From assembly GCA_015680685.1 (NCBI GenBank), contig MNCI01001083.1:177989-241988 (forward strand): DNA of 64,000 nt, given 5' to 3'. The notes below the pieces were generated by a model, which worked only from the letters and a program-made list of their open reading frames with translations, was not told the DNA's origin and ran no database searches. Of the stretch, positions 6,960-50,900 are shown piece after piece; within the stretch, counting starts at the first letter, position 1; the number at the start of each line of letters is the position of its first letter. This DNA comes from Gnetum montanum (taxonomy: Eukaryota; Plantae; Gnetophyta). A program made the position numbers and the translations under genes.

Positions 6960-9768
6960 TTACAAAATTTTGTGGAACTCATGTTGTTCCAGGTGGTTGT
7001 GGCTCCTTCATGGGATGCTTCCCCTTGTCTTGTGCTTCAAATTTTGGAATTTTATGGCTTTGCAATAGTGCTTGGAGATTTTCCTCTTCAGTTCGGGGAT
7101 CCTATGTCATCCATGCTAATGCACCAATGTTTGATAGAGTCGACACATCCTATGGACATGGTAATTGTGAGAACATTTGATTTGCTTTAACATACTAGGC
7201 TACAAACAAACATCATTCCTCCTTGTAGGTTCTAGCTTTGTCCTTGTTCCTCTAGAAATCTATAAGCCATCAAGCCAAGTCTGTTGTGACATCTTTCTAC
7301 CCTTGGTAGCTGGCCTTAACCACCTCTAGTTCAAAATTTCTAACTTCTAGCTTCTGCAACATTTTCTTATGCTCTATAAATTTTGCTTCATATTTGGCAT
7401 AGGTGATAGCTACCTACTTCTCAAGCTTTATTCTTGGATGTCTTGCTATCAACATGGCTAGATTGGCATACTGCAGGTTTGCCAATTCCATGTACTCTGT
7501 GAGATCTTGAATCTGCAGGTCCCAGCTTTTAAGCTCTACTTGGTAGAAAAATGCATATGTGTCCAATATGGCCTGCCAATTAGTATGTTAAGTACTAAAA
7601 ATGTTGATGTGGGCTTTGGCCATATGGATCTCCTTCTTGATGACTTTCTTGTACATCCCCACCTAGTCTCTGAAATGCTCTTTTAACTTTTCATGCTACT
7701 TGGCCTTGTTTTGTCATGTGCTTATTTCAATGGCCATCTTCTAACAGATTGAATGTACCTCCTCCATTAAGAGGGTTTGATTCTCTCTGGCCAAATGGTT
7801 CATGTCTTGGTTTACCCTGACCAACTGTTCTTGTAACTACTGAAAATTCTCTTCAAGAACATTCTTCTATTTCTCCACAGTGGTCAACCAAAGATTATCA
7901 ATAATGAGTTGTTTATTCTCTTCTTGTAAGGCTCTAAGTGCCTTGGCATGTGCATAGGTTTGCGCTTGTGCCTTCGAGGCATCCTAGTTAGCCTTCTCCT
8001 TCTCCTCTACCACTCTTGTATTATCTTCCAGTAGCTTATTGAGTTGCTCCATCCTAAAAGTGTCTAGCTAGTCTATGGGAACAAATTGAGATGGGACACA
8101 CTGTGCAGCTTGTAGGGTAACAAGCCTCTCTTGGAGTCTTGCTAACTCTGCTTCCATGTGCTTAGCCCTAGTCTTTGCCATGACTAGCTTCCCTTTGGTG
8201 GAGATGAGTTCTGATTGCGCTACCGTGACATCTTGTGCGATGTTGAACAAGGACGTCATTACTTGTCCTATTTGTAGCAATAGATCAAGGACATCCTCAT
8301 GCTGCACAAGAGTCATTGAGGGACTAGCTAGAGTTTGAGCATCCCATGCTTCTATGAAAACTGCTGATGGCATAATAGGAACATTGAAAGATTCTTTGAT
8401 GTTGTCTATGACCACTTCTGTAGCTCCCACTACATCTTGGTGCTACATGACCACTACTATGGCCCCTTCACCCATTTCCAATTGCACCTAGAAAGATGTA
8501 GTATTCCCTGAAATATATTATGACCAATGGATCTCCCCTCCTCCCGTTTGGATGGACACATCACCCTGTGCATGATCAATAGAAACTATGGGTTGTATGG
8601 TGTCATCGATGATGTGGAAGAGATTAACATCATCATGACTTACCCAATTGACCATCTCAGCAATGGCCTTGAGATGGCTCATCGACGGTCGATAACCCTA
8701 CAGCAGTGGTGGTAGTTGATCTCACTGGCTCATGATAGGCCGTGCTTCTTGTTGACTAGGCCTTGTGCTTGGGCATTGGCTAGGCCCTATAGTTTGAGTT
8801 GTAGTGGGCCCCACTGTCTGTTCTTACCTTGGCTTCAGTGTCTCACTAGCACTTTTCCTTAGGGCTAGGGACATCAACAGTTTTGTGAACGAAGAATTTT
8901 GGGCTCTTCTGGGAACATCATTGCTGTACCCCAGAATACCAACATATTTGCACAGCTTCCTAATGAGATGAGGGAAGGGCTACGTGAACTTCTCTATCTT
9001 GCATTCTTCAAACCACCTTAAGAGATCCATGAAATACAAATGAGAAAGGATAGCATTAAACCTTCCCATCAATATCACACTTCCTCTTGCCGCATATGTT
9101 GAAATTTTGTTTAATCCTCTTGTGGGGAAGATGTGATAAGTACCAATCTTCAAGTATATCCTTTCTTCTAGCATCAAATCTCCATATGTCTTATCTTCTT
9201 TGTTGTATGTCCTCTTCAACCAAATCTTTTGCACATTAGCATCAGAGCGAGTGGGTAGGTGAACAACTTTTGGCACTATATTTGAAAGGTTTAACACTTC
9301 TGAAATGGCCTTGGTGAAAAAATCAATAGATACACCACCAATGTCAATTGTGGTGCCTTCTTCCTTATTGTGCCAAAATTGGTACATTTCTCCTAAGTAC
9401 TAGGCACCACTTTCAAAGAGGATAGGCCCTAATGGGGACCCTTTGAGTTGGCCCCTAATAGCCTCAAGAGTGAATTAAGTGAAAGGTCCAAAGTTTAATT
9501 CCACAATCATAGCTACTAACATGGGCCTTTCTTGGATAGCCTGGACACACTCTGAGGACAACGTGAGGTGTCTTCCCTATTCAAGTACTTCAGCAGCTCC
9601 TCCTTCTTCCTATCCCAACTACATAGTAGTAGGAGTCTCTTGGTGTATGCTAAATGATTACGCCTTCTACTTTGCATGTCTCTTAGGAGTTGCTTTTCCT
9701 ATGCCTCTGCTAAGTCATTTGGACACACCTTGAGAACGTCCTTCTTATTGTCCATGTTTAGGGGCCAT
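6960..9768 (-). pseudogene. Decayed accessory ORF2 (env-like position; N-terminal plant-transposon/PMD-like domain, C-terminal coiled coil)
   Basis: Starts MAPK directly after a TTGCAG acceptor; MYQFWHNKEEGTTIDIGGVSIDFFTKAISEVLNL segment; heptad-rich ends (AQSELISTKGKLVMAKTRAKHMEAELARLQERL); many C>T stops. Confidence 0.7.
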
Positions 9769-12700
9769 CTGCAATCACACAGGGGTGACCATTAGTAAGG
9801 TTGTTTAAAAAATTTAAATTATACCTTACTTCTACCTTAATGAATTCATTTCTTATTTCATGTGATTCAGAGTTAGAAAATTTTGTGGTAATGTCCCCTA
9901 AAAATTTTAATATTGGGTCCCATTTGATTAGGTGGCTTCAAAATTTTAATTTCTTGGTATAGGTAGGGAGATGAGATTGTTTTTGGCAACATGTTTATTA
10001 TTTTTATAATCAATTACCCTTTATAGTATCCTTTGGATGATGATGAATTTTGAAAAATTTATACACAATTTGGAGTGTACCCCACCCCCACAACTACGCT
10101 TAACAATCTGGGTTCAGGTAGGTTCGAACAGAATGAAAATCATAGCATTAGTGAGCAAGTTATGGCGAGTAGACCAAGAGGTGCACGAGTCGTAATTTGT
10201 AGAAGAAAATTTAAAAAACTCCCCCCACATGAATAGTTGAGAATGATGTTGACATGTGTGGGGGCGAGGCAGCGAGGGGTGGTCCATATATATAGTTTTT
10301 GAGGATGAAATATCGTGTACATGATAATGCGACCCTCATATCACATATGACCCGATATCTGGGACCCAATATCACGACCCAACAAAAATAGGGTACTTAA
10401 AAAAATTGATAAATTTCTGAAATTCTAAACTCAAAAATGAAGGACTTGAGGTTTGTGTAAAAGGTTCAGGGTAATATTAAATAGTCCAGAAGGCACAAAA
10501 AATATAATGGTGTAGAATCTGGTAATGAAATGCATGAACTGAATGAGGAGAAAGGACATGTTTCAATACATAGGAACATTTGAACTAGAAGGATGATGAG
10601 GGAAAGAGTATTGTAATACTTGGAGGATATAAAATTATATGATGGTGATGTGTTACAAGTGAAAATTACAAAATTCATGCAAGTGGATCCTCCCCAAAGC
10701 AGGTTCCAACCTATAATGTGCTTATGTAACCACACCTCAAAATGTCCATAGGCACTACAAAGGTTAAATGTAATCCAAACTAGTTCCACAAAACACACAC
10801 ATGTAGATACCATCGTGATGAGGTATGAATTCAATGCTACATAAGACACAAGTCACAATTACAAGATTAGTGAGGTGAGGCAAATTATAGAAGGGATTAC
10901 AGAGATTGGGACGTGAGGTAACTAGCCTAGGGCACAATGAATCCTCAGTGTAAGGCATGATTAATGTGTCATTAACCTATCGCTCAAAAATTAGGACCTA
11001 GTCTATTCCTCTGATCAGTGACATCGCATTGTTTCATCTTAATGATAGACAACAATGAGAGCATCATGATGGTATGGTGTATGATCACTTGGCGTTTTGT
11101 ACAAGGGAGGAGTGATTCTTGCTTTGTGGCACTCTTTTTATTTTTTATATCTAAAATTCTTAATCCAGAGAAGCTGCTTACCTTTAGGCATGGGTACATG
11201 TGTTTCTAGTGTGACCCCCTAGAATAGCATTAGGTTTCTTTATTAAGTGCCTTTTTATTACTCTTACTCCCATTTTTTGTTAGATCAACAAGGATCTTAG
11301 TACAACTAGGCTACATGATAACTCCCACGAATGTCACCAAAGAGAATCCACAAAGTCCCCTTGATGTCACATCCTAGCCATTTCTACTTAGTCCATCCTT
11401 CTTCATGCTAGGTATAATGAACATAAGATTACTTTAATTTTTAATGATTAGGAATATCATTGTACCTATGGTAGAACCTCTTATTAATAGAATGGGTGGA
11501 TGGATGTTGTGGACTCACTATTCAAATAATTAGTTACCTGAGACTTGATAGCATAGAACAACACCTCAACCAATGAGTCACATGAGTTTTTTATTCGTAG
11601 ATGAGATTACTCATAAAAAGACAAAAAGAAAAAAAGACAAAACAATAAATTGAAACATGAAAAACTAGAAAACAAAAAATTGTAAAATTAAAGAAAACGA
11701 AAACATTTATTAATTCTACTATTTTTAGAATGGGGGATACCCTCCATAACTAAATGGTTGAGCATGGCTAGAATTAATAAATGGAAGGTTGGGATCCTTG
11801 CATGTTGGAAATATTGGGACCTAGTCATACTTAACCCCATTAGGGTTCACACACTTGATTAGAGTTGACAGAGTGGGCTAAGTTATAAGATGTGGTTAAT
11901 TTATAAGGAGTTGACACACTATGGTACTTGTGACCATAAGATGGTATGCAAGGATCAACATGTCTCCCCATGTGGCCATATTCATTGGGCCCCATGGTTG
12001 TTGGAGTATTGAGTGGTGGCCCTGATAAGGTAACATGAGGCATTGGGTTTGAAGAGGAATATGCACCACAGTGTTAGACTTGTGTTGAGTTAGTGGATGT
12101 AGTGGTTTTTGAACTATGATGTCCCTTTCTATGGTCATGTTTAAAGAAGGGATGTCTTTGATGTTGTAGAGGGTTCCCACTATTGTTGACAGTAGAAGAA
12201 CAAGTAGTGTTCGTGGGTTGATGTTGTGGTGAAAATCCTTTGAGTACAATTGGTGGCAATGTAGAAGGAGGTGAAGGATGAAAATGTTGTAATTGAGGAG
12301 AAGTGTAAGGTACCCAAGGTGGTGGTCCTGTTGGTGAGGATACGAGTTGATAGTATTGAGGAGAATAATAATAATGTGGCGAGATAGAGGATGTTGACCC
12401 AATTGGGGAAACAGAATGTTGAACTTGATAAGCACTTAGGTTTGGATGGTATGAAGGGTGTAATCAATTTGGGGATGGCCTCCCCCATGACTAGGATTGT
12501 TGCCACTGTGATTAAACACAGTATTTTTGCATGAACTCTGGATGTAACATTCTTTCCCAATGCTCATGTAAATGTGAAAAGATTGGGCATTGGCCCTTGG
12601 GATGATCGTACAGGAAAATGTTACATTAATATGTAAGATTGGTAGTTAAGTTCTTATTCTCTTCAACCCTTCTTTCTGATTGTCTTAAGGTGTTTTTTCT

Positions 12701-12899
12701 TGTTTCTTCGATTGTCATAATTCTACCTCTAATAGCATTGGCATATTATCCACATTTTTCATGCATCCATTTCATCATCTTATTGATATTTACCTCAATT
12801 TCATCTAATGATTGTAGTATTGGCAAAGATGATTCCTCCTCCTTGGGGTGAGTTGATTTCTCCTCTTCATAATCATGGGCCCTTGTTCATTTTTGGGCC

Positions 12900-13717
12900 T
12901 ATTGAGATTTTTCAGCATTCTCCCATTTAGCTATTTCTCCTTCTTCTTTTGCTACCCACTTGAGAAGCTCTTGGAATTGATGGGTTCATAGCTCATATAG
13001 TTGACCTTAGGTGTACATCCCTAGGATCTCCCTTATTTCTTTGCAGAGCCCATCCATGATTTAATACATTAGCCTTTCCTCAGAGAACCCATGGCCTGGG
13101 CAGTTGTTTAACAATGCATAATATCTTTCTAAGGCCATGACTAAGGGTTCATGTTGCACTTGTTTCCACTCTTGGATTTTTCTCCTCAAGGTTGACACTC
13201 TTGCATAAGTTTGATATCTTTCGTTGAAGAGTTCTACCATTGTTGGCCAATGTTAGATTGATTTTGGTTTTAAGGACCTATACCATACTTTTGCGTGGCC
13301 AATGAGTGTCATAGGAAAGAGCTTAAGTTTTTTCCGTCCATTATCAATGGTGTTCCATGCACAGGCATCGTAGAAGGCTTGTAAATGTTGCTGCAAATCT
13401 AATTCATAGCCTCCTAAAAATTTGGGAAAGTTGTTTAAATCAAGCCTAGGTAGACAACTTTCCTTGTGATGCCTATGGGATATTTGAACAGCCTCTTGTA
13501 TTTGTGTTAAGCTTGTAGTCACCAGTAGGGGTTCATCGTCACTAGGTATGTTATGCATTTGTGAGTTGGGACAATGTTTTTTGCATTTATGCTCATAGGA
13601 GACCCCTACATTAGATTGGGTACTCCAAACTTCATCTTCATCATTATATAATTCTTTGGTTATCCAATGAATTGCCTTACTAGTTGTTGCATTATCATGG
13701 TCTTGTGATAGAGACAT
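12900..13717 (-). pseudogene. gag: Retrotransposon gag (Athila type)
   Basis: FPKFLGGYELDLQQHLQAFYDAC...KLKLFPMTLIGHAKVWYRSLKPKSI followed by ...LLNNCPGHGF (cf. Athila CPHHGF). Confidence 0.88.
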
Positions 13718-13846
13718 GGTTGTAAATTTGTGTGTGATTTAATTACAATTATTATTATTATTTGTTCTTTTTTCCTGAAAGATATATCATTAATACTTTG
13801 TTACAGTGATCTTGTATGATGTAACTAATCTAAATAACTAGCACCA

Positions 13847-13864
13847 TCCCTAGCAATGGCACCA
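13847..13864 (-). promoter_or_regulatory. Primer-binding site, tRNA-Asp type
   Basis: TGGTGCCATTGCTAGGGA, 1 nt inside the 5' LTR, is the Athila PBS TGGCGCCGTTGCCGGGGA with four transitions. Confidence 0.88.
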
Positions 13865-13865
13865 A

Positions 13866-14706
13866 TGATGAGTGGCGAGGTACCCATACACTCAACCATA
13901 CAAATACGAGCATTCATGCACGATCCGATCAAACTCCATAGATGGACTAGTTGTGGTATTTGGATTATTACTCATTGATCAGAGTTCATTGTCTTCCCAC
14001 CTAGACTAATATTTTCTTTGTCACGTATGGTTTAGTCTAGAGTGAGTTATATGATGTGGTTCTAACTAGTGCTACTCCTAGAGGCAATGGAAAATAACTT
14101 TGTTTTATGATAAGAGGGAAAGGGTTAAGAGAGTCTAAGCTAGCCTAAGTGTGATGAGAATCTATCCCTTAATCATCCATACACATCTTGGACCCCGTGC
14201 ATGACTACCATTGGGATTACCAAGCGCATGGCCTAGGTACACTACTGGGATACCAAGTAGTCACACTTGAATGCTCATGATTAAGTCATACTCATTCCAT
14301 GTTTAAGGAGTTTAGGATGAAGAGATATTAACTACAAAAGCAATAAATAATAATAATAATTAAATAATTAAACTAAGTGAATGCTACAATGATGAATTAA
14401 TCTCAATCTTTATTTTTGATCATGTGCATGTCCAAGTACATCACACTTGAATAAAGGTCTCATATAATTACAATCATCACACTATGAACATGCACTGAGG
14501 GAAAGGGTTGAGAAGAACTAAAAATGAACTAACTTCTATCTACTAACTGAAAAAAAAAACTCTTTGACTCGTTCTGCCTACATGTGTATTTATAGGCCTA
14601 CACAGGAGTCACAATATCATGTATTTAATATCTCCTCTTAGGTCATGATATCACGTACCTGATATCGGGGGTCCAATATTGGAGCTTATTGAATTGTGAT
14701 TCATCA
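13866..14706 (-). repeat. 5' LTR of the Athila-like element
   Basis: Matches 5948-6782; TG...CA termini; adjacent to the PBS. Confidence 0.93.
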
Positions 14707-15849
14707 TACTTGATAAACTTCAAGGCCAACTTGAGTAGTAGTAGCCAAAAATATTCTCACAAATTCCATTCGCAAAAAAGAAGAAAAGCTTTTTTCAAAA
14801 ATGCAACCTTGACATTGGAGATAGTCTTTGGTAGCTAGGTGAGCTTTAAATTTTTTCACTTGATCATCATGAACTTTTTTATTTTAAATACCCATTTTAA
14901 TCCAATGATTGGCTTACCAGATGGAAGAGAAACAAAGCTCCATGTATTATTTTTGTTGTTCTAATGAATTTTCTTCTCCATTGTGTCTATCCATCAATCA
15001 TCTAGCATAGCTTCAATGACTGTAGATTGGTTTACCAAACCATCAATTTTCCCATTAGCATAAGCAGTGCAAAGAAAATCATCATTCTTTCTAGCAATGA
15101 AGATAGCATTTTCAATGGCCTCCACATTCTATGCTATGCATGTATTGGCTACCTAAAATTGACTATGAGCCATGCACTAGGTAAATTTAGAGTCCTATAT
15201 ATTGGAGCATGGATGATATGCAAAAATATGGTAAATGAACAAGAGTTGTGGAAAGAATGAATTAGCTAAACTAGAAGGAAGAGATGCAACCATAATAGAT
15301 GAAGATATGTGGCATGACTATTTGTATGTATCAACCAAGCTATAGGAAAGAAGATGAACTATGCTAAAATGAAAGGAGATGTGCTAATGATGGAAAATTA
15401 AGATGGGAAAATATTTTTATGTGGAAATAGAGCATCAAGAAATGAGGAATCTATATTTCAAAGCTATAGATCAGGCAAAAAATATTGTGATAACCATAAA
15501 ATCTAGTCACCCTATTATCCTATGCAGTGTTGGAAGTGAGTAGGGTTAAAAATAGTAGTTGCAGGGTTCATGGATGAGGGACAATCAGATGAAAAAAAAT
15601 ACATCTAGAAATAGATGATTGATGAAGGAGTTGAAGTACTAAGGATGGGTGCAATGCATGAACAACAAAAGAGACTTTAAGTTCTTGTCATTGGGTTGTG
15701 CTATTAGAAAGCATTGAGAAGGAAGTGGCTAGAGAAAAATCAAGTAGATGGAGGTAGAGAGGAATAACTCCTGAAAGGATTATTATCAACTACATAAAGA
15801 GAGGAATTGTTATTTTTGTGGCATCAACACCCATAATACTTTTGGATGT

Positions 15850-23700: not shown

Positions 23701-23790
23701 AATTGAATTAAAGGTTGCATAATTTCCTAGATCTTCTTCTTAAGTATCCTTTTGAGATGAAGAGGGACTATCTTTGTATTGCATGGAAAA
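20780..23790 (-). mobile_element. Ty1/Copia remnant C, heavily decayed pol, no LTRs seen
   Basis: IESGCSSHMT (protease, ~23650), LHARHGH (~23180), RIFGYHCYVK (INT end), KLNKALYDLK and ILVYVDG (RT), KSKHIDIKYYF-like RNase H (~20830-20860). Confidence 0.82.
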
Positions 23791-23796
23791 TTTAGT

Positions 23797-25200
23797 TGTT
23801 GGAAAATCAAAAATCCCAAGTGTGATAGCCTAACCCTAGATCCCAAGGGCCTCCAAAAAATAGGATCCAAGGTGGTCTAGATGGTCTTGTTGATCACCCT
23901 AGGACTTAAAAAGTGTAAATGATAAAATTAAATAGGAATGAAATTGAAGATTCAAATGAAAATAAATTATCATAAAATTAAACTTGAAATTAAATTTGCA
24001 TTACAAATGAATTGAAAAATTTATTGAATGAAAGTGTAAAGTTCAAGAAGTACAAATTGTATGCTCAAAGCATAAGAATTTGGCTTAGATAGAGCTTGAA
24101 GCCTATTGGAGCCAAAAGGTTGTGTTTTGTAGTCAAACTCCACAATCTGGCTTTCTCCTAACATCAATCTATTACAACTCCTTACTGGTTTTCATTCAAG
24201 TTTATAACTTTGGATATAGGTGGTGTAAATAGCGTCATACAGTCTTGTTCTAATGGTACTATTTTAAGGGTCTATAGTGCTCAGCCTAGATGCCAAATGG
24301 AGTGTAGAAGTGGTCAAGTTTGCAAAACAAGGATATGGGTTGTACAAATGATCATTTAAGATTGCTCAAAATTGCAAAATTGTTGATCCTAAATAATGTG
24401 TTTACATTTGGCTTTTATAAGCTTTAGGTTGTTTATTTTAGGCTATAAATTTCTACCATGATTGCTAAAAAATTGGTATTGGTTGCATGTGTAATAGCTA
24501 TGATTCCCCAACATAGATGACCATTTATAGTAAGTCTTAATGCACCAAGGTCAACAAAACCCATCTGCATACTAAAAATAGTAAACAGACTTTTGGGACT
24601 ATGCTAGCCTTCACCTTAATTACACGAGCCTAGGAGGACTATAATTACACTTGTTGAAATTTTTTGAAATGGGGTGACTACGTTAGTCATACTGTAGTTG
24701 CTCTAAATCCATGATGACTACATTGGCCATGCTGCCACCATTGGAAAATGCCATGCATACACTAGAAATTTCTGGAAAAATGGAGACCCTAATAACTCCG
24801 ACATTAGATGTGTATAGCTACATTGGGTTTTGTGATGACTATGCTAGTTTTTGTTGGAAAACATAAAAGTCCAACATCTATGTTGGGGGTAGGTAGTTCT
24901 AGCATAGTTGAGGCTATATCCCTACAAAAACAAATGAGAATGCCAAATTTGAAAGTCCCAAAGGCATTTTAAGCCTTTCCAAGCTTATATATAGACATGA
25001 TAGAAGTTTTTCTACTTGGGAAGTGAGGCAATAATAGCTTATGAGGCATTTTTCAGCCCAAAATGTTAAGGTATGCAAGATTGTAGCTCATGGGCCACAA
25101 ACCTTGCATTTACAATAAGATCTTACCTCAAGTTGGATGGTGAAGGTTATAAGTTACAAGTATTTTCTTGGTGGTGTTTCATTGGTCCCTCTTTCTTGAT
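23797..25200 (-). repeat. Long-LTR-like segment (probable 3' LTR end of the Tat element)
   Basis: Colinear with 52554-53975; both begin TG(T/C)TGGAA at a sharp boundary. The inner boundary is not resolved. Confidence 0.65.
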
Positions 25201-27656: not shown

Positions 27657-28227
27657 TGTCATGTCCCCATTACCAAATGATGTTGTTGCATAACAAAGAT
27701 GGTGCCTCTTCATAACAATTGTTATTGTTATCATAACAAGGCCTAAAAGGGTAGTTGTGACTGAGACTTGAAAGGGCACATTATAACAATGAATGTCTCT
27801 GGAGATAACCTTTGGGGGTTTGACCTAAGGCATTTATACCTAGGCTTAGAGATCATGCCCAACATGGAGTCACAGAGTTAGTAAGGCAAGTTACAAGAAC
27901 CAGGTGAAGTAGGATAGGAAGTGGACTAGCCATCCCTTCTGGCTAGGTTATAGGACTAATAGTGGTAGCAGTATTGGATTGCTTCTAAGGGATAGATGCC
28001 AAAGGAAGAAATCCCCAAGGAACACTCTCATATCATGATTTAGATACACTATTCTATATCTATGAAGCATTCTTTTCTTTCTCTTTCTCCACTTTCTCTA
28101 TTATTTTCTTTATGCATAATGTTGAATATTGCATATATTGATGTTTGGTATATTATCTTCTTATGCATAATGTCTAATATAATGTATATTTTATGTTTTC
28201 CTTAACATCTAGGAATAGGATGTCATA
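27657..28227 (+). mobile_element. Solo LTR (~570 bp) of the 57441-63088 family, inserted in the Tat aRNase H
   Basis: Matches both LTRs of the 57441-63088 element; TSD GCAAG/GCTAG; removing it restores ENVLADT on the minus strand. Confidence 0.9.
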
Positions 28228-32699: not shown

Positions 32700-35600
32700 C
32701 ATAATCTTCCCATAACTACCAAGCTTCAGCACACATCATTAGAGCTCTAAACCTATTCTTGCATCTACTTCCTTCATCCGTAGCATAATCTAGCATTTCT
32801 ACTCTAAGGAGTGGGTGGAGTTGGTGCAGGAGGCTCCAAAAGCTTAAGGATTTCAATGGTTTTTGCATCATTCATCAACATGTTGAAGAGGAAGGCTTTC
32901 ACCAATAGGAATCCAACCTTGGAGGAGGTGGATGCAACTTCACAAGGTCTCTTTCACCTCCCATAGCTAGTGATCAGTGAAGGTTCTATTTTCGTGACTC
33001 CTAGGTACACAAATCCTAACCATTTCATGTAAAATTTCCTTGGAATCCTAGGCATTTTTAGTCATGTGGGTTTGTTTGTTTGATAGATTTGAATGTTGCA
33101 AAATTCCTAGATTCTATCAAGGCTATGTTTATGGATTTTTGGTGTTTCTTTGGCTATGAAATTGGTGTGTATTGAATTATAAATTTTGTTTCAACTATTT
33201 ATATGCATTCTTGGTAATTTTCAGGAAAAAAGTAACATCAATGTTGTATGTTTTTATCTTCAAACAGTTTGGAAATTTTATTTTTTATTTCCATGAAACT
33301 ATAGTACTATTTTTAATGGTCAAATGATTTTTTAATGACTAAATATTTACTTCTGGTGAATTCTCTACAAATTTTTCTGTAAGCCACTATATAGTGGATG
33401 TTTAGTTTTGGCAGTTTTATAGGGTAATTTGGTATTTTCTCATGTCCTAATGGTTAAGAATGTTTTGGTTATCAGGTTTTGAATTTTTACTATATTTTTT
33501 ATTGATTCAAATGACTATGGAATTACTCAATTCTAATGTGTGGTTAATTTTTGGCGAATTTTTTTGTAAACTTGCACAAAGTGGGGTTTTGCTGTTATGG
33601 TTTTCTTTATGTTAATTTTGCATTTTATTTATTTATTTTTTTGAAAAAATAGCTAGGATTTGTTTTTATGGTTTTAAGTTTTTATTTTTTTGTTCAAGAA
33701 TTCCAATTCCTAAAGAATCATCAAATTTGATTACATAATTGATTTTTGGTAAATTTTTTGATTCGTGTAAAGATATGGTTTTTGGTTGGCATGGTTTTAC
33801 CTATGTCAAGATGAGCAGCATTAGCACTTTGAAAACTTTTTCCATCCAACATCCTAGGTTCTTAAAGATAATCTAAGGTGTTAGGAAGGGTTTTGAAGTG
33901 ATTATGGCAAAGTTAAAAGTTTTTTGATTATTTTTATTGGTCATCTATTGTAGCCATTTTCTATAGTTTTGGGTTGTTGTAATGTTTTTGTTGAATGTTG
34001 TTAAGGCTTTGGGTTGGTGTTCAAAAAGTTTTTTGAAGCTTGGAATTGGAGTGTAGATGTCCAAATTTTATTAAGTTTTGATGCCCACACAAGTCCTAGC
34101 CTTAGAAAAAAAATTTAGTTCTAATCAATCATTTCCTACCAAGAGTAAACTGTTCTGTACAACTGCAATTTTATCCATGAAAACTACAAGTAGTGTTGGT
34201 GTTGTTTTGGCATACTTTTAGTTACATTCAAAGTTTCTTAAGGTTTTTTGCATGTTGGTTTTTAGTTCTTAATATTCATTTGAAATTTTAGAAAATTTTA
34301 ACTAGCCTTCCAAGAGTTTTTAGTGTGGCTAATTTCACCATTAACTAGAATGCTTAGTACAATTTTGCAAAATTTGAATTGGTGTTTGGTGACTGTTGTA
34401 GTAGTTGCAAGCTAGTTTTCATGTTTTTGATGTTTCTACATAAAATAACTTTACACCTTAGTGCATATCTTCCCATAAAAACTACCATCTATTATTGGTA
34501 GGCCACTTGGTTATATATGCTTTTTAGTTGTTCCTAGTTTTGGCTTTGGTTCTAAGTGGCAAAACTATGTTTTTAGTTGTTTTTTTTTTATAAAAATGTT
34601 GATTTAAAGTTGTAGTTATTTTGGTTACTTAGCACTTGTTCATATTCAGTTATGGTTGTTTATAGTTTTAACTATTGTTGTTGTTGTGTGTAGAACCTTT
34701 CTTAGGCACATATTAGTGATGATTGAGCTAGTGGGGCTACTTTTCTTTGTTTATGCATCAAGACACCACACCCTACCCCCATAGATGACATTGGAGCATG
34801 TCTCTCTATGGTTCAGGCCTAAGGCAAAAGAGTTCATGACCTTACTACTGCATATTTTAGTGTGATGGTATGGTCACACTTGTCATCTCTTACGGTGATT
34901 GTGTTCATCGAAACTCTATTGCCTAGGTCCTTAAGCTTGATTGTTAAGTTCCTAAAAGATGATTCTAAAACACATGTAGAGGGTGAAGTTCTTGATGGCA
35001 CTTATACAAGAGACAATTTTAAGCTATCCAAGATTTAGGACATGCTTGAGTTTAGCTTGTATAATGCCAACAACACACTATTGCTTGATCACTGTGCCCA
35101 TACATTGTTTCAAAACCCTTCCAATACTATTATTTTTTTATGGATATCTTTATTATTTTTTTATTAGGCTATTTGCTTGTAATGTTTTTCTTGCTTTAAT
35201 TGGTATGCTTTCAGGTACAGGGTGGATGACAAGGGGTTCATCAAAAGTAACTAGCTTCTACCCTTGGCTCAAATGGCATTGGAGGCTTTTGCCAAAAGCC
35301 TTAAGAGGCTTACAATGCTGGAGCAACTAAGAGGTGACTTGGGTAAGTACACCACATGTTATTCTAATGCATACCAAAGGTGTGTAGATAATGGAATATC
35401 ACATGCTTGGTGGGCCAAGTTAGATCTTTCTTGCATACCCATAGAGGCCCTTATGCAACCCTCTTCTAGCAAGAAAGGTAAGAATTATATATTTTTTATT
35501 TTTTTATGTCAACATTTTCATGATTTCATAGTTGTAGGTTTTTAGGCATTATGTGTATAAAAGGTTTTCCTGATCTTTATTGGCTATAAATTTGGTTTTA

Positions 35601-38400
35601 ATTTGGTTATACTTATTATATTGTCGTTTGATGTGCTTATTCCAGAGCTAATCATCATCTTGTCATATTATAGGGGCTATCACCTCCTTGACCATCATAC
35701 TAGTTATTTCAGGATGCTCTAAGAAGACTTTCAACCTCAAGTACAGGGAGGTGGATTTAGCACAATAATGGTTGGCTAGTAGGGAATCCAAAAACATTCA
35801 AGAAAAAATCACTGATGTAGGTTTGCTTGATCTCTTCATGGCCCCTAGGTCAACTATCCCTAACCCTAAGATGGTGAACATCATCGACTCCTTTGATCAA
35901 GTAGTGAATAAGTTCATCACTCAAGTTCATGGTGTGTCTATCACCCTAGCCACCAATGAATCTGCTTTTAGTGACCTCTTTAGCATTCCTTGTGATGGCC
36001 TAAAGATTTTCACTAAATAATGTAAAGAGGTGAACCACCAGGAGGAGGTGGAGGAGCAATTAAACACTCATCATGATTACAAGGGGTTGTCTCTTAACAA
36101 ATTCAAGGCTGAAGAGGCTAGAGAGGCATATCCCTTATTTTGCTCCCATGGGTTTCCCAAGTTGTTGTTGCAAGGTAAAATCATGCATGTTCAGCAAGCA
36201 TGCACCATGAAGAAGGTCCTTTCATATGATGCTCAATTTAACTAGGCTAGTATCTTAGCTTCTAGGCTACATGGTGAGATCCTTAAACTCCGTGACAACC
36301 TCACAATGAAATGCCACATTCATTATGCATTCTTTGTGGCATATCTAAGGAGGTTCATAGAGTTCTTGGTGGTGATGAAGGATGGAAAATAGGTATTCCA
36401 AGATCCATTCCAACTCTCCAAGCCATGGGTTAAATATGTTTATCCCACTATGTAGGCTTAGAACCAACTAGAGGATGTTGGGGAATCACTATCTGTTACC
36501 ACTAAGACACTTAGTTATAGGTGTTTCCTTTTGTTGATAGCATGAGGATTGAACCCTAGGTTGAGCATGGAAATTTTGAATGGACTAAGACATTGTGAGC
36601 TAAAGCTAAATGTTTAGCTAGATCCAAACTAAAGAGGCCCATGGTTAAGGAATCAACACCAGTGATCGAGCAAGCCTTCATAAGGAGGTTCATGGTTGGA
36701 CTTGGCCAAGCATGCAACATGGTCATAGGTATGTTTTAATTTGTTTTATATTTTATGTTTTTTGCATTTTTATGGCTTATGTTATTAAGGATATATTATT
36801 ATTTTGTTTTAAGTAAGATATGCTAAGTCATATTATGTTTAGCTCTTGTTCTTGTAGGCAAGCAACAAGAGTTGGTAGCCCATGTAGTAACAGTGGAGGC
36901 AAAGAAAAAATGCCTAAAGGAGAAGATGCTACAAGTCCATGAGGACAAGGGATTATCCAATGTCCCATTGGATGACTTTAACTTCACATTTAATCCCTCA
37001 TAGCTTGGTGAACCCCTTGTCATCATTCCAAATGATGCTCCAAGTATGTATTCCTTTTGTTTCATGTGTTTGAGTTCTTGATGTTTTATGCTTAAGCTTT
37101 GTTTTGATCATTTGCTGATTTTTATGCTTTCCTTAGCTACTAATCATTAATCCACCAACTCAACCTCCATGTTTTTCATGAAGACATGGGTTGACACTCC
37201 TAACAAGAGGGAATTCATGTGGGAAATGGCTAAGGATATGATTAACTAGTTGCAATAGGTTTCTTTCAATGTTGATAAGAACTTGGCTTATCTTGTGCTT
37301 TTAGTTTTTTTCTTTATGGTTGTATTATTTTATTTATATTTTAATTTTTTGTTTCTTGGTCATATGGTTACTTACTATTTTTGCATATGTTTTGTTTTTT
37401 GTTGTTTTCAACACCTATGCTTATATGGGATCCCAACCATCACATTGAGACCGATATCCTAGCTAGCTTTCCCTTAGATGTGAAGAGTGTAGCCAAAAGT
37501 TGTATGAAAGTGACACTAATTATGAATTTTCATGTGCCAAAATTTCATGGGAAGTTCAACATTCTAATGAGTTCCTATGGAAACATGTTATAGCATTGGA
37601 AAAACAACATAAGAAGCTACCAAAGGCCTATAGGGATCTCAAAGATCATAAGGAATTTGTGGAGGCCTAAGTGGGCAACAAGAGTTCCTTACAAACTAAG
37701 GAGATCAAGTAGGAATAGTACTAGAATGCCATCAATGGCAAGGTTACACTTGCCTAAGAGGTTGCAGAGTAGAAGCTCCAAATGGACTTGTTGGCATGCA
37801 AGGCTAGGGAGTGGAGAGAGTACTATGCCTAGGTTCTTGAGTGGGGTTGGATATAGAAAGACCACAAGAAGAAATACAAGGCTGAACATGAAGCCTATGT
37901 TAGGTGCTTAAAGTAGGAGTCCATTGAATGATGCAAGTTGAAGTTGTTTGTGAAAGGGATTCAGGTGGAGGATGTCTTCAAACTATTTGAAGGCACTCTA
38001 ACCATGGCTAATTCCTCATCTCCTCAGGTCTCTACAACTTCTAGGAAGGTGACTACTAAGAAATTTTTGTAGGAGCCACCTATATGAAAAAATATTGATG
38101 AAGGCAACATCTCAAATATCAAGAAGGTGGACTAGTCCCACATGACTGAGGAACAAATCCTCCATCATTTGGAGGTTGGCCTTTGGAATCTTCCATCAGA
38201 AGATGTTCCACTTGAGTCCTCCTAGGTTTGCTTATTTTATTTATTTTATCATATTTCATTTTAAGTTAATTTAATTTATAATTTGGTTTCATACTTTGTT
38301 GATTATTGGTTAACTTATGTTTTTTGTTGTGGTATAGGTACTAGGTGACATTGATGCCCCAATGGTGAAGATGAAAGTGCTTCTCAGCCCCCTCTAGTAA
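32700..38400 (+). pseudogene. Decayed multi-exon accessory gene antisense to Tat pol (plant-transposon/PMD-like domain plus coiled coil)
   Basis: GT donors at 33005, 35478, 36729, 37044 and 38226; AG acceptors at 34693, 35214, 35673, 36857, 37136, 37593 and 38337, flanking T-rich introns; exon peptide IIDSFDQVVNKFITQVHGVSITLATNESAFSDLFSIPCDG. Confidence 0.6.
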
Positions 38401-38714
38401 ACCCTTAGTACCATCTATTGGTTATTACCTATGGTTATTCCTTTTGTTATGTTGATGATATTATTTATGGCTATTGTTACCCTTTGATGTGGTTGATAGA
38501 TTGTGTATAATTTAAGCTTTCATGTTTACTATGTTATAGACATTGGACACTTATTATTTTTAAATTTTAATTTGGTTTATATGTTTTAATGTTTAATGTT
38601 TACATTTTCAGTATCATGTCATAGGCTATGTTGGTTAACTTATGCGATTATGACTAGTTATAAAAAGTAACATTGGCTACTAAGGAGTGAACTAGGTTGC
38701 AAATGGTGATAAAC

Positions 38715-38975
38715 ATTTTACTAGTTTTAGGCCATGATGGACCATACTTTTTGCCAATTTTAGGTCATGGAGGGCCATGTCATTTGATAGTTTTAGGCCA
38801 TGGTGATTTGTGATATTTGCCAATTTTAGGCCATGGTGGGTCATGCGAATTATTAGTTTTAGGCCATGGCAAGCCATGCAGTTTGCCAGTTTTAGGCCAT
38901 TGTAGGTCATGCAATTTGCTACTTTTAGGCCATGGTTAGCCATGTGATTTGTTAGTTTTAGGCCATGGTGAGTTT
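38715..38975. repeat. 33-bp tandem array (~8 units, core GCYAGTTTTAGGCCATGG)
   Basis: TTTTAGGCCATGG recurs every 33 bp and produces the HHGLKLA repeat in ORF 38692-38988. Confidence 0.9.
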
Positions 38976-41569
38976 TACGTTTTGACAAGAAAAATTTTTG
39001 TTGGTTTTTATGTTTTTTTAAATTTTTATTTGTTTTTTCAAGTTTTAAAGTTTTTATAACATTTTTATAATTTACGTTCTAAGATAAAAGGGATTGAAAA
39101 AGTAAATTATAAATAAGAGTAAACCTTAGGTTATATGTGAAGTAAAGGTCAAAACAAAGTAAAACAAGAGTAAGCAAAATGGTGCATACAAGAGACATGT
39201 AAACTAGGCTAACAAGGTTATAGTTAAAGAAGGCCACATAGTTATAAGTGTAAGGGTGAACAAATCAAGGGCATACATCAATTACACAAGTGTTTCCTAA
39301 TATTTAATACATTAGGAAATTTGTACAATCTACTTTCCACAATTTTGTATTCCTTGTTTTCTTCAATTAAAACATTGAAGGGGAGCTCTTCCCATGGTGC
39401 ATCCATAGGCCCATTGTTGTTGTTTTTGGCCTCTTGTGCTATCTCAGGCTTCTTGACTTTGTGGTTGATAGTAGGAGCTTCTTTCTGAAACTCCAATTTT
39501 GAACCCCTATTCAATGTCAATATTGTTGATCGCCAAAGGAACCACATTGTTACCATGGACAACTATCTCACCTTCCTTGTAATGCAGGTGAATTTCTTGG
39601 TGGATTGATAAGGAAATAGCTCATAATTGAGCTAGCCAAGGTCTTCCTAGGATAAGGTTGAATCCTTGTGTCTATTCCACCACTAAGAAATTGGCCATTG
39701 TGGGGAATTATTCCCATACCACAAAGTCTAATAAAATTAGGCCTTTTATAGACACCTTAGATCTACTGGAGGACTTAAGAGTGGTTGTTGAAGTATGTTG
39801 CATATGCTTGGTTAGGCCTAGATGTTCTATGATGGTGTAAAGCATTATGTTTGTTGTGGCTCCATTGTCAACATCTGCTCTATGCACTTTGTATTGGCCT
39901 ATCTTTATGGTTATAAAGAGGGGATCCTTGGTTGTCTTGCCATATTGAGGATTGGTCGTGACTTCGCTATCACGAAACAGTAGTGTTGTCAACCTCATTT
40001 CTTCCCTTGGTGAAGGTGGAATAATCACTGTAAGGATGAACTCTTCACTAGTGAGGATATCTTCACTAATAAGAATAGAGGTCAACATCTTGACTAATGC
40101 CTCACTGTGTGCAACCTCACAATTCTATTCTCAAGTGACTCACATTTCCTCTCAAATTTTTAACTCACATTATTCTCATTATTCACAACTATTACTCTCA
40201 TTACTCTTATTCAACTCTTAATCTATTCCATCATTATTTACATTTAAATAGAGATATTCTACATCAACATAACATAACCTTGTTTTTTAGTTACAACTTC
40301 AACCAAGGAAGCTTTTAGGGAAGGATGAGTAATTAATTTGTTTTCTATAGAATTAATTTCTTTTTGTTTTGAGAAGTAAAGTTGGGAAAGGTATCAACTT
40401 TTCTAACAATTTGTTTCTTATTTCTTGTAGTTAGTTTCATTTTTCTTCAAAGAGAGTACTTCTTCTCTTTACAATAAATCATTTCATAAAAAGTAAAAAC
40501 TCTTGAGGAAGTTTTTTTAAATAAAGGCTGGCTTGATCCTTTATCTACCCTAGAGAAGATATTTTTAAAGATCAGTTGTAAGGATGAAAACCTAAAAAGC
40601 AACTTCAAAAACATTAAGTTTTTTCTTTAAACTTTCTTTTATATTGATAATATGATGCACTAGAATTTTTTAATTATTATTGTTTTTAAAATCTGCTTGT
40701 ATTATTATTTTTAAAATCAGATGGAACCAATTGAATATATATTTTAGTTAACGAACATATACATATATTAAACTGGGGAAAAAAAAACCTTCGAAACATA
40801 ACATGCTACAAAGATCTTTGTAGTAGTACAGCCCTCACCCTCAAGCCGCCAAAAAATTTCTGTCCAAAATTTTAACTCGTTCTATGCATTTGCTTTTTAA
40901 CAAATTAGCCCATAACAGTGATGGTTACCTAGTACCACTAGGACGTCAAATTTGCAATTTAAGTCCCAGCTTAACAGCTTCATGAAATGTAAAACAATCG
41001 GTATAGAAAATTTCAGTGTCTCGACCAAAACCCCAAGATTTTGAATGTTGGTGTAAATCCGGGTGTACCACCAACATTTTCAGCTCCTTGAGTGGTAGGA
41101 TTTGCATCAAACATTCCTTCGGTAGCATCTTCCTTCTCCCCCAATGCAGAGCACGTAGCGATTCAAGATTCCAGAAATCACTGCATAACTCTTCCAACGA
41201 TTCACATTCATACAACTGCAAATCCAAAGCCTTGTGGCACCGTATCAGCCTTGAACACTGTAAACGCAGAATCTCGAGATGCTTCAGCATTCCAAAACTC
41301 TGTGCAAGCTCGTACAGTGCGTGGCATTGGATGTTGAGTTCTCGGATATTTAAAATACAAAGCTCCTCTGGCATCCGTATTATCTCTGCTTCCATGTTGC
41401 AAAAATCCAGGGTCAATGCTCTTAAGGGGATGGACTCTGCTCTGTCGCGATCACCAGGGGTGGAGATTGTCGGCTGGAAAGAGGTGCCTGCAATCTTGAT
41501 ATGCAAATACCTCACAGGTTCCGGAATCTAAGTGAATAATAAAAGTGCCGTGAGCAGCTTTATTTAAAA

Positions 41570-41733
41570 TTTCAAAATATGCTACGCTATCAAGTTTATA
41601 CAACACATGCAGTGGGCAGCATTGCTTACGCTTTCCCAACCGATATTCTCGTTTCAAAATATGCTACGCTATCAAGTTTATACAACACATGCAGTGGGCA
41701 GCATTGCTTACGCTTTCCCAACCGATATTCTCG
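41570..41733. repeat. Perfect 82-bp tandem duplication within the LRR region
   Basis: 41570-41651 is identical to 41652-41733; the length is not a multiple of 3. Confidence 0.92.
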
Positions 41734-42030
41734 TCCTTCAGTACATGCAAAATCATAATACGCATGGAGCTGTAAGCCATTTTCACACGTTTTTGCACAA
41801 GAAAGTGTGAAGGTCCACGGTAAACTCTTAGGTTAAAGAAGTTGATGTCCCAGACCACCTGGCGTAGAGTAAGTGAGGAACCAGTTGGAAGCCACAAAAA
41901 TTGTAAAGTTTGGGCCAGCCAATCGACGCTTATGCCATCCAATTCTATCTGCTGCAACGCTAAATTCTCACCAAACGTAAGTGCCTTGATCGGGGGTTTC
42001 TGCAACATAACAATATCATGTAAGGGCCTT

Positions 42031-47265: not shown

Positions 47266-47268
<3 letters not shown>

Positions 47269-47959: not shown

Positions 47960-50900
47960 TATTGTTTGATTGCACTTAGTAGCATAACATGTGTTCAGTA
48001 TAACTCAACCTATAACATCTGCACTTCCTTCTCTGCATGCTTTATCCTTGTTTCTACCATGACTAGCTTTCCTTTGGTTTCTATTAGATTAGATTGTATT
48101 GCAATGATATCACTTGGGATGTCAAAGAGATTCTACATGACTTGGCCTATCTACAGTAGTCGATCAAGGACATCTTCATGCTTTGCTAGGGTCATAGATG
48201 TAGCGACTAGCATTTGCACATCTCTAGCACCAGTGATATCTATTAGTGGTACAATGAAAACATTGAATAATTCTTTGATCTGATTAGTGATATCTTCTAT
48301 TGCCCTACTGCATCTTGGTGTTGCATCATCATTACCATGGCACCTTCCCTAGTTTCTAGCATAACCTCAAAGGATGTAGCATTCCTTGAGATTTGTTGTG
48401 CCTAGTCATTGTCTCCTCTAGCCTATAAAGATACCTGCCCACTATTAGGTCCTATTAATATCATAGGTCTAATGGAGTTATCTATTATATGGTATAAGGT
48501 ATAACCTTCTCTTGCTCCCCAATTGATTATTTCTACTATTTGTTGCAAGTAAATCATTGAAGATCTATAATTGTATCATGCTATTGGGGCTTGTTGTTTA
48601 GGTCTATCACCAATAGGTGTTGACCCATTGGGTCCTACTTGTTGCTACTATCTAGTTGCTATAACATTACTTGCAAGTGTAGAACTTGATGCTCCCTTAG
48701 TGCCTACTAGCTTCTCTAGCCAATCTTTCTTTGGTGGCATTGGTTTAGACATTTTTGCACATGATGCATTCTGGGATTTTCTCAGAACATCATTGGTGTA
48801 GCCTGGGATCCCCACTTGCTTACACAAATTTTTGATTAAGTAAGAAAATGATAATGTGAGTTTCCCTATCTTCTTTTCTTTGAACCTTCTTTGGATCTCT
48901 ACAAAGAGTAAATGTGCTATGTTGGCATTAAATTTTCCCATTAGAATTGCAATTCCTCTAGCTACATAGGTGGAGATATTGTTGAGTTTTTTAGTTGGGA
49001 ATAACTAATAAGTTTCGATCTTGAAGTAGATTTTTTCCTCAATAGTTAACTCACTATATTCTTTGTCACCTTTTTCATAAGCTCTATGTAGCCATAACTT
49101 CTTTGTGTCAATGTTGAATTTGATTAATATTTATGTGAGATAGCTTATATAGAATAAGGCACTAAGACTCCTTCAATCTTAACTATTGCATCATCCTGCT
49201 TATTCTTCCAAAACTAATATACCTATCCTAGGTACCATTCATCATTATTTAATAGAGTTGGTCATAGAGGAGAGGCTTGGAGTTGCGTTTTGACAACTTC
49301 TAGTGTGAACTCCATGAATGGTCCAAATCTTAGTTCCACAATGACTATGGACATGATGGACTTCTCTTGAATGGCTTGGAGGCATTTTGTTGACAACGTG
49401 AGGTACTATCCTTATTCTACAGCTAGTGGTGCTTCTGCCTTAGCTTGTGTGGATTGTTCAATAACAAGTGTTTGTTGGTGAATACTGAAAGATTGGGCTT
49501 CTAACTTTGCTTCTCACTTTTGCTCTTTACCTTGTCCTCCACCTTAGTCCCTTGGTTCCTTGGTCTTTTGCGTTTAGGCTATGAGGATCCTTCTACTACC
49601 GGTCTCTTAGGAGGCATCTACAATCTCTAAGAATCCAAGGTTATCAAAGGATTTTGAATAGCTTTCTTAATAGCTCATAATCCTTTTTTGTGCTATTGGT
49701 TCTGTGTAAAATGTATCTTTATTATGATTGCAAAGTTAGAAAAATATTAAAAATAAATCCTTGATTGTTATATCTTTGATGGTTAACTAGGAGAATTGGT
49801 TAAGTTCATTAGCTTTTATTCAACTAATTGATTAAAATATTCTTATTTGTTATCTATTCTTACCCTTAATTTGCTCTTCCAACATTAGAAACATTTGGCT
49901 CAAATTTGCTTATCTACATTCAATAGCCTCTACCACGACTAAGTTGAGCACATCAGAATCAAGAGGTTTCAAAGATCACATGAATTGGGGCTATGGTGAG
50001 AAAATTATGAAGCTTGAAAGTTCATGCATTAGAGCTCAGAAAAATTACATGAACTCCCCTAGCTTTGAAATTTGAGAATGAAAAATTTTCTAACTCCTCA
50101 TGCATATATATAGATTTTTATATGCATGACATCATAGCTATGACATTGTAGCACATATGACATCGTAGATACAATGTCATTGCTAGAAAATTTTATATTG
50201 TTATCAATTTTTGAGGAAACCTTTGAGTCAAATGGATAGTTTGGAAGATGTAGAAGTTGTCTAGAGGGTCTTTGATCATAAATTATGCTCATATTACCAG
50301 AATTTTATGGTTAAAGATCATAAAGAAGGAATATTTAATAACTAAGGTCAATCACATCTATAAGAGATGATAGGAAGAATTGCTAAAAGTATGATCAAAT
50401 ATACAAGTATAGGAAAGTGAAAATTAATGTTTAAGTATCTTGGAGGAATAAGATGATGTGGAGTTGGTCATTAGGTATGAAGTATGAGAGTTATACAAGT
50501 GGGTCCTCCCCAAAGTAGGCTTCAGTCCTTAGTGCCCTTGTATAAGCACACCTATAAGTGTCCATAGGCACTCAAGGAGTTGAATGTAGAACTTACCTTT
50601 CTTGCAAAACACTTATTTTAGTATCACTAAAATGAGAAACTAATCCTATATCATACAAAACCATGGATTATGATTATATATATGAGTAATGTGGAGTGGG
50701 ATTAGAAAGAATTGCAAAAATTGGGATGTGAGGTGTCTTACCATAGGCATAATAAATTTGTGTGTGTGATGCATAGTTATGATGATCATTAGCCTTTTCG
50801 TCCAAGATCCAAACCAAGTCCATACCACTTACTAATGACATCACATTGTATCATCCCAAAACTAGCAACCACAATACTACCACTACTACTAGAAGCATTA

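What the first reader, a model, noticed from the sequence alone, without database searches (positions are those of the whole stretch)
9768..50170. Candidate system: each retroelement family pairs a spliced accessory ORF with its own CG palindrome upstream
Seen in three families. (A) Athila-like 5948-14706: CGATATCG-type motifs at ~10310-10380 upstream of ORF2, and again in its LTRs (3430-3470, 6685-6760, 14610-14680). (B) Athila-like 47960-52553: three decayed copies of a motif reconstructing to CTACGACGTCGTAG at ~50125-50170, in the same position upstream of ORF2, with CTACGTAG-like motifs at ~52150-52200. (C) Tat element: a TACGCTGGCCAGCGTA array upstream of its antisense gene, and half-sites in the LTR-like repeat. 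ORFs A and C share a similar G-V-S-I-x-(F/L)...SE/SD-x-(L/F)-x-(L/I) segment followed by coiled coil, and B is homologous to A. Established analogy: VANC proteins of Arabidopsis VANDAL DNA transposons bind family-specific arrayed motifs and counter methylation silencing. Inference: LTR elements here may have a comparable family-specific trans-factor/cis-site system, for anti-silencing or activation. No function is shown by the sequence.
Basis: inference. Interest (0 to 1): 0.83.

Follow-up and report, generated by a model that had tools for sequence, protein, structure and literature searches.

The report
Nucleosome-spaced palindrome arrays in plant retrotransposons
Several old jumping genes in this plant genome carry their own palindromic DNA words right at the start of an extra gene, in one family as twelve copies kept about one nucleosome apart and on the same face of the helix, which likely marks docking sites for a protein, predicted but not shown to be the element's own.

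Summary
The motifs are real; the pairing with a cognate protein is not shown. In the two Athila-type elements (A, B), short decayed CG palindromes sit directly 5' of a TATA box that precedes an intron-acceptor/ATG and a Transposase_32-like ORF2. A and B have different palindromes at the homologous position, and A uses one motif at both its LTR and ORF2 promoters. In the Tat-associated block (C), a 16-22-bp palindrome occurs 12 times at about 192-bp spacing upstream of a multi-exon gene. Its spacers are nearly unrelated, the palindrome is conserved, AA/TT steps are phased at 10.1 bp to the palindrome centre, and spacings differ by whole helical turns. A second 12-copy array shares the core, has different flanks and lacks the gene. 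Best reading: selected promoter sites for a symmetric DNA-binding protein, element-encoded at about 45%. Papers already suggest such regulation for plant LTR extra ORFs; I found no report of the phased array.

The parts
13866..14709 (-). Element A 5' LTR; motif cluster 14606-14690 just upstream of its TATA box
   Evidence: (87% identical to 3' LTR)
13846..13865 (-). Primer-binding site of A, TGG-initial, Athila tRNA-Asp type (type recalled)
12500..13738 (-). gag remnant of A; no pol domain hit in the stretch scanned and no room for pol before ORF2 (non-autonomous)
   Evidence: PF03732 E 1.9e-15
10286..10385 (-). A internal promoter: 4-5 decayed GATATC-centred CG palindromes followed by a TATA box; collinear with A's LTR U3
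7000..9768 (-). A ORF2, one frame with 33 stops in 923 codons (61-63 in the other frames); 3' splice acceptor directly before the ATG; Transposase_32-like domain then long E/K/Q-rich helical tail
5948..6785 (-). Element A 3' LTR; motif cluster 6682-6765
2171..4215 (+). A', 3' part of a related copy (74% identical) with motif cluster 3428-3475 before the LTR TATA box
50104..50181 (-). B internal promoter: 4 decayed copies of a 12-14-bp CG palindrome followed by a TATA box, at the position homologous to A's cluster
47990..49617 (-). B ORF2, frameshifted and truncated, acceptor directly before the ATG, Transposase_32-like
   Evidence: PF20167 E 4e-6
52156..52236 (.). Second, different palindrome cluster (CTACGTAG core) upstream in B
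23781..25183 (-). LTR X, 3' LTR of the Tat pol remnant, with C-type half-sites at 24597-24900 and a purine tract at its inner border
26300..29570 (-). Tat pol remnant RT (N-terminal half missing)-RH-aRH-integrase, interrupted by a 550-bp repeat
30130..32260 (.). C array: 12 copies of a 16-22-bp CG/CHG palindrome at 181-203-bp spacing, flanking half-sites, AA/TT phased at 10.1 bp
32880..38400 (+). C gene, predicted 7 or more exons from GT-AG borders and low stop counts; first ATG about 620 bp after the array; no family assigned
38714..38972 (.). 33-bp tandem repeat; shorter related copies at 29682-30029 on the other side of the block
39500..40150 (-). Aspartic protease remnant, same strand as the RT-INT remnant
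   Evidence: PF13650 E 0.01 (below cut-off)
52538..53956 (-). Second copy of LTR X (67% identical) with C-type half-sites
54038..57071 (.). T3 block: 32-bp tandem, 12-copy array 54677-56788 with the C core but A/T-tract flanks, reversed relative to C; no C-gene homologue

Best explanation
These elements carry conserved CG palindromes at the promoters of their extra genes and in their LTRs, and the palindromes are likely docking sites for a symmetric DNA-binding protein, predicted to be the element's own accessory protein. Shown: motif position next to TATA boxes (A, B), the same motif at A's two promoters, different motifs at homologous A and B promoters, and in C conservation of motif, spacing and helical phase without conservation of spacer sequence. 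Inferred: a spliced sub-genomic transcript makes a nuclear Transposase_32/Athila-type protein (A, B) or an unassigned multi-exon protein (C); the protein oligomerises through its helical tail and binds the palindromes; in C the sites would lie between rotationally positioned nucleosomes, one per 182-214 bp; binding would keep the LTR and internal promoters of the family active in trans, by activation or by local loss of methylation. That would explain why pol-less elements such as A keep gag, the sites and ORF2.
For: C palindromes differ by 0.059 transversions per site, spacers by 0.195, shuffled spacers by 0.223 (55 spacer pairs). 10-bp AA/TT score 1.5 and 2.3 in the two arrays, at most 0.66 in the 90 of 108 windows that do not overlap them, at most 0.83/0.94 in 200 run-preserving shuffles, and it survives masking the palindromes. 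Off-mode spacings fall on whole turns (8 of 20 intervals, P about 0.002 after dropping two recent duplicates). Half-sites recur in LTR X. A's internal promoter aligns with its LTR U3 through the TATA box, while its 1-kb surroundings are homologous to B's (62%). A and B are PF20167-like; a sunflower Athila PF20167 ORF is predicted nuclear (PMC11728184, passages); Athila-domain and VANC proteins are both modelled as coiled-coil oligomers (PMC13547354, passages).
Against: No binding, expression or methylation data. A-C homology not detected; C has no Pfam hit at or near a cut-off and only a sub-threshold atlas lead (0.85, PF03078 on 14% of members). The T3 array has the C core without the gene. 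Motifs are not wholly private: A and C share GCGTA in register from the centre and B shares CGTAG with C (noticed after the fact), which fits one host reader as well. Intact CG: 0 of 48 slots in the arrays, 1 of 12 in B, 7 of 32 in A, with no clear difference from the rest of A's LTR. A's motif is statistically weak on its own. Only one copy of C and B, so no co-phylogeny. VANC targets in the paper read are non-palindromic 8-9-mers without CG (PMC5735166).
Confidence: 0.45

Rival explanations
1. The palindromes are sites for host factors (a transcription factor or a CG-reading chromatin protein) that the elements have arrayed at their promoters; the accessory ORFs do something else, and motif differences reflect promoter turnover.
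For: Shared TACG/CGTA arms in A, B, C and T3; position just upstream of TATA is typical of any activator site; the T3 array stands without the gene; LTRs commonly carry host factor sites upstream of the start (PMC13547354, passage).
Against: The centres and spacer lengths differ between families, even at homologous A and B promoters; a 22-bp perfect palindrome is long for one host dimer; I recall no plant factor with these sites (recall only, no motif library searched).
Confidence: 0.27
2. The C/T3 arrays are mainly structural: old tandem repeats selected for nucleosome phasing or DNA curvature (or for a role in RNA dimerisation, packaging or integration), and the short A/B clusters are unrelated promoter elements; there is no common system.
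For: The phasing signal lies in the spacers and persists when the palindromes are masked; A and B have no nucleosome-scale array; A-C homology was not detected; family-specific tandem arrays of unknown function are common in Tat/Retand elements (PMC11963269, passages).
Against: Nucleosome phasing does not need a base-specific 22-bp palindrome; the same half-site is enriched, unphased, in LTR X; helical-face conservation argues for DNA rather than RNA function.
Confidence: 0.2
3. The motifs are neutral by-products of slippage and tandem duplication, seen as a pattern after CG decay.
For: A's motif is at chance level in several tests; A's internal cluster could be a copied piece of its LTR; three T3 units are recent duplicates.
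Against: Neutral duplication would not leave palindromes conserved among near-random spacers with quantised spacing.
Confidence: 0.08

Closest known systems
VANC anti-silencing proteins of Arabidopsis VANDAL (Mutator-like) transposons (PMC5735166: passages and section 9)
   Same: [quoted passage not shown]
   Different: VANDALs are DNA transposons; VANC21 and VANC6 motifs are non-palindromic 8-9-mers without CG; VANC has DUF1985/DUF287 domains and is called dicot-specific (PMC13547354); binding and demethylation are shown there and not here; the passages read mention no nucleosome-length phasing.
Athila 3' extra ORF (env-like; PF20167 Transposase_32 / PF03078 ATHILA) (PMC11728184, PMC7264820, PMC6317226: passages)
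   Same: [quoted passage not shown]
   Different: Here A lacks pol, and A and B show an internal TATA promoter with a palindrome cluster, which the passages read do not describe; sequence is below Pfam's cut-off.
Retand/Ogre (Tat) extra ORFs with TRP28 or PMD domains and family-specific tandem arrays (PMC11963269, PMC6317226: passages)
   Same: Tat-type pol (RT-RH-aRH-INT), extra gene, tandem arrays, proposed DNA-binding regulatory role; Grande's extra gene has its own promoter (PMC7264820).
   Different: Retand repeat units are 8-100 bp; the array here has 182-214-bp units whose only conserved parts are a palindrome, half-sites and AA/TT phase; no TRP28 or PMD hit for C; the block lies between protease and RT, not between pol and the 3' LTR.
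Spm/CACTA TnpA and subterminal repeats (bioRxiv 10.64898/2026.08.24.746577, passages)
   Same: Element-encoded factor acting on arrayed sites and causing sequence-specific hypomethylation; short tandem repeats at both ends of the C block.
   Different: No CACTA ends or inverted termini were found at the block borders; that preprint has no occurrence of 'retrotransposon' or 'LTR' in its main text.
CENP-B box in alpha satellite (recalled, no call)
   Same: A CG-containing site once per nucleosome-length repeat, read by a transposon-derived protein, methylation-sensitive.
   Different: Animal centromeric satellite with homogeneous monomers and a host protein; non-palindromic site.

Membership tests
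Athila-lineage element with PF20167/PF03078 extra ORF (A) | LTR pair, TGG-initial Asp-type PBS, gag | tested here: met
   PBS type recalled
Athila-lineage element with PF20167/PF03078 extra ORF (A) | RT phylogeny in the Athila clade | not testable with these tools
   no RT in A or B
Athila-lineage element with PF20167/PF03078 extra ORF (A, B) | Transposase_32 domain in the 3' sense ORF | tested here: met
   E 0.008 (A) and 4e-6 (B), both under the curated cut-off; atlas 0.91-0.92, 20 hits with PF20167
Athila-lineage element (B as a whole, 47960-52553) | Own LTRs, PBS and gag | tested here: inconclusive
   homology to A ends near 51008; no gag hit upstream; no LTR of its own in the window
Tat lineage (pol remnant) | additional RNase H; order RT-RH-aRH-INT | tested here: met
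   arrangement found in angiosperms, ferns and some gymnosperms (PMC10508981)
Tat lineage (C block as part of that element) | Extra gene and array are integral to the pol-bearing element | tested here: inconclusive
   for: LTR X carries C-type half-sites; against: block splits pol, RT N-terminus missing, orientation relative to LTR X is opposite in C and T3; no listed contig bridges RT and block (list truncated)
Retand/Ogre extra ORF | TRP28 (PF04195) or PMD (PF10536) domain in C | tested here: inconclusive
   no hit in exon-wise scans of a decayed gene
VANC-type anti-silencing system | DUF1985/DUF287 or MAIN-like fold | tested here: inconclusive
   no Pfam hit; models at pLDDT 38-40 are unusable
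VANC-type anti-silencing system | [quoted passage not shown] | tested here: met
   partial sharing of arms noted
VANC-type anti-silencing system | Encoded by a Mutator-like DNA transposon | tested here: not met
   LTR-element context for A and B; no transposase or inverted ends seen for the C block
VANC-type anti-silencing system | Sequence-specific binding and loss of methylation in trans | not testable with these tools
   needs binding and bisulfite assays

The most novel reading that the evidence does not exclude
Plant Athila/Tat LTR retrotransposons run their own sequence-specific anti-silencing or trans-activation systems: the Transposase_32/Athila-type extra proteins are VANC-like readers whose CG palindromes change family by family, and in one lineage the sites are written into a 12-unit, helically phased array with nucleosome-length spacing (147 bp plus linkers of 10n+5) that builds its own promoter chromatin.
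Probability: 0.3. Interest if true: 0.85.

Novelty: new variant of a known kind. Interest (0 to 1): 0.62.

Why it matters
The function of the extra ('env-like' and antisense) ORFs of Athila and Tat elements has been open for over two decades, and these elements fill large plant genomes. This window offers concrete candidate target sites, including a natural swap (homologous A and B promoters with different words), so the idea of retrotransposon-encoded, family-specific chromatin regulators becomes directly testable. The phased array is a striking object whichever protein reads it.

Tried and rejected
No whole genome is held, so no co-phylogeny or copy survey. Protein searches: none at E<=0.001 for A among longer proteins (170 candidates), none for C (107 candidates), only P0001 for the A/B profile (474 candidates); the representative search gave 4 hits, 2 real fragments and 2 repetitive chance hits. 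PDB sequence search for A: nothing. Structure models had pLDDT 39.9 (C) and 38.0 (A); Foldseek and VIA-align gave only generic helical matches, Z<8, with no VANC or PMD entry listed, which is uninformative. Motif scans: 0 in viral contigs; 5 metagenome loci with isolated matches and no array, treated as chance. Runs: no RNA holder listed. Reads were laid on 23700-33100 only: two RNA runs (about 2% and 26% read) put no reads on 30294-32177; most of the C gene and all of A and B were not covered, so splicing is untested. A palindrome-centred nucleosome was rejected (z -5.1 and -7.5), and a dyad exactly midway between palindromes is only weakly supported (z 2.5 and 0.6). A methylation-protection footprint was sought and not found. 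A CACTA or inverted-repeat border for the C block was not found. A simple heptad score did not separate the ORF tails from other parts, so 'coiled coil' rests on composition. Sasaki 2022 (EMBO J) and Tanaka 2026 (VANC21 structure) are not held; no supplements were read, and those of PMC13547354 may bear on Athila-VANC structural links.
Full report
Setting. The window is old, repeat-rich plant DNA with heavy CG loss. No genome is held, so the evidence is the window, its internal repeats, limited database searches and one laying of reads. Broken genes were read with X at stops.

Element A. LTRs at 5948-6785 and 13866-14709 are 87% identical; the element lies on the minus strand with a TGG-initial PBS, a gag remnant (PF03732) and no room for pol. 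ORF2 runs from an ATG at 9768 in one frame with 33 stops in 923 codons, against 61-63 in the other frames. A textbook 3' splice acceptor lies directly before the ATG. The N-terminal domain is Transposase_32-like: Pfam E 0.008, under the cut-off, and atlas scores of 0.91-0.92 with 20 PF20167 hits and a PF03078 row at 0.90. About 520 bp upstream, a TATA box is preceded by 4-5 decayed GATATC-centred palindromes; the same cluster precedes the TATA box in both LTRs and in the related copy A'. The internal cluster aligns with the LTR U3 through the TATA box. Statistically the A motif is weak: 37 decay-tolerant 8-mers against 35 expected; 4 loose 12-mers per 100 bp are reached by 25 of 30 shuffles; an 11-mer arm gives the window's five best counts, all at A sites, with 9 of 30 shuffles reaching 3. 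The unbiased scan did not recover it. Its support is position and recurrence.

Element B. ORF2 (ATG 49617, acceptor directly before it) is 47-54% identical to A's (PF20167 E 4e-6). The 1-kb upstream region is 62% identical to A's, and the alignment puts B's four-copy palindrome cluster and TATA box on A's. The word is different. It is the top cluster among 244 CG palindromes scanned (score 9, best of 6 shuffles 7), and each CG slot shows both TG and CA. A second, different palindrome cluster lies at 52156-52236 (4 per 100 bp, max 2 in 30 shuffles). Homology to A stops near 51008 and B's own LTR is not in the window, so the LTR-promoter match seen in A cannot be repeated.

Block C. Twelve copies of the 16-bp palindrome lie at 30133-32242; 19 window matches at <=1 mismatch compare with 0.8 in shuffles. 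Column counts extend it to 22 bp and show mixing at CG and CHG columns while the central GC is fixed, the signature of a methylated perfect palindrome. The spacers are almost unrelated (identity 0.58 against 0.55 shuffled; transversions 0.195 against 0.223), whereas the palindromes differ by 0.059: motif and length were kept while sequence drifted. A second array (T3, 54677-56788) has 12 sites, three of them 3-mismatch matches placed by position, with the same core, A/T-tract flanks and reverse orientation. Both arrays, and no other part of the window, show a 10.1-bp AA/TT period (1.5 and 2.3; at most 0.66 in 90 non-overlapping windows of 108; at most 0.94 in 200 run-preserving shuffles each; kept after masking the motifs), with peaks 30, 40, 50, 60, 70 and 80 bp either side of the palindrome centre. 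Of 22 spacings, 12 are 190-195 bp and the rest cluster at 181-186, 203 and 214, whole turns from the mode (P about 0.002 after dropping two recent duplicates). By the recalled rule for AA/TT placement, a nucleosome centred on the palindrome is rejected (z -5.1, -7.5); an exactly midway dyad is weakly supported (2.5, 0.6), as expected if dyads shift by half a turn when spacing changes by one turn (inference). The lengths equal 147 bp plus 10n+5 linkers, a class modelled as topologically distinct and linked by hypothesis to transcription (PMC5271602, abstract only). Wrapping around a non-histone oligomer fits the phasing too. Contigs from two DNA runs give summed depths of about 260-1290 over the array bins against 7-10 for contigs of this locus, so related arrays exist elsewhere, though far below pol depth (not a copy number).

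The C gene begins with an MLKRK exon at 32880, about 620 bp after the array, and has six GT donors and six AG acceptors at frame-consistent places; six of seven candidate exons have one plus-strand frame with far fewer stops than the others. No family could be assigned. Models were unusable. The block sits between protease and an RT lacking its N-terminal half, and is antisense to them; LTR X carries its half-sites (4 exact, 0.01 expected). In T3 the same block faces LTR X the other way and lacks the gene. C may therefore be an integral spacer of this Tat family or a nested, partly deleted insertion.

Mechanism. The anatomy says cis-sites under selection, read as DNA by a two-fold symmetric protein. 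I favour an element-encoded reader (0.45) because the word changes between homologous A and B promoters, A uses one word at both promoters, and the sites are long. A host reader (0.27) is favoured by shared CGTA arms in all motifs (noticed after the fact) and the gene-less T3 array; a structural role with no common system gets 0.20. No protection from methylation is visible (0 of 48 array CG slots intact, 1 of 12 in B, 7 of 32 in A), which is expected in dead copies and decides nothing. RNA reads did not cover the genes of interest.

Comparison with print. VANC binds family-specific motifs arrayed by tandem repeats, but they are non-palindromic and CG-free in the examples read (PMC5735166, passages and section 9). 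VANC is structurally tied to MAIN, and VANC and the Athila domain are both modelled as coiled-coil pentamers (PMC13547354, passages and section 10). Retand elements have family-specific arrays of 8-100-bp units and TRP28 ORFs predicted to bind DNA (PMC11963269, passages). A 2026 sunflower paper raises VANC-like action for Athila as an open question (PMC12844716, passages). So the idea is in print as speculation. Ten full-text searches, judged by listings and the papers opened, showed no plant LTR-encoded anti-silencing factor and no nucleosome-phased palindrome array in such an element; subscription papers and supplements were not seen. Earlier scan notes describe nucleosome-spaced motifs in fungal retrotransposons and animal DNA transposons, one with host RFX sites; they are unchecked leads that cut both ways.

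Verdict. Observation partly confirmed and, for C, stronger than stated; interpretation plausible but unproven. It works like a VANC-type arrangement in layout and is not a member of that family. Interest 0.62.

Noticed in passing
window 959-1732 (-): Intron-free stretch of a PP2C phosphatase (PF00481 E 2.8e-11) in a CG-rich region; gene end or retrocopy.
   Followed up: no
window 40946-44208 (-): CG-rich island with a weak LRR hit (PF23598 E 0.0007) and several ORFs around an assembly gap; possibly an NLR-like gene. An exact 82-bp duplication at 41570-41734 may be an assembly artefact.
   Followed up: no
window 27657-28201, 57441-57990, 62513-63086: A 550-bp high-copy repeat in three copies, one inside the Tat pol; it draws most of the RNA reads (related copies, under 90% alike).
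   Followed up: partly
window 24520-24590 and 53313-53376: LTR X shows TATA-like boxes on both strands about 45 bp apart in both copies (read), suggesting a divergent promoter.
   Followed up: no
window 29570 (-) and 57110 (+): At the same end of the C and T3 blocks lies a splice-acceptor-like signal, leading into the RT remnant in C and into an unassigned decayed frame in T3.
   Followed up: partly
window 29600-39000: Runs labelled as five different organisms share this stretch (0.07-0.49 of words; two of them laid), so the insertion is likely old and shared among related species.
   Followed up: partly
window 4268-5736 / 18123-19552 and 15251-15767 / 17551-18081: Two further inverted repeat pairs (72-80% identical) beside copia-like ORF fragments; no CG-palindrome cluster above chance there.
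   Followed up: no
window 47691-47956: Fragment of an A-like LTR in reverse orientation at the truncated 3' end of B (64%).
   Followed up: no
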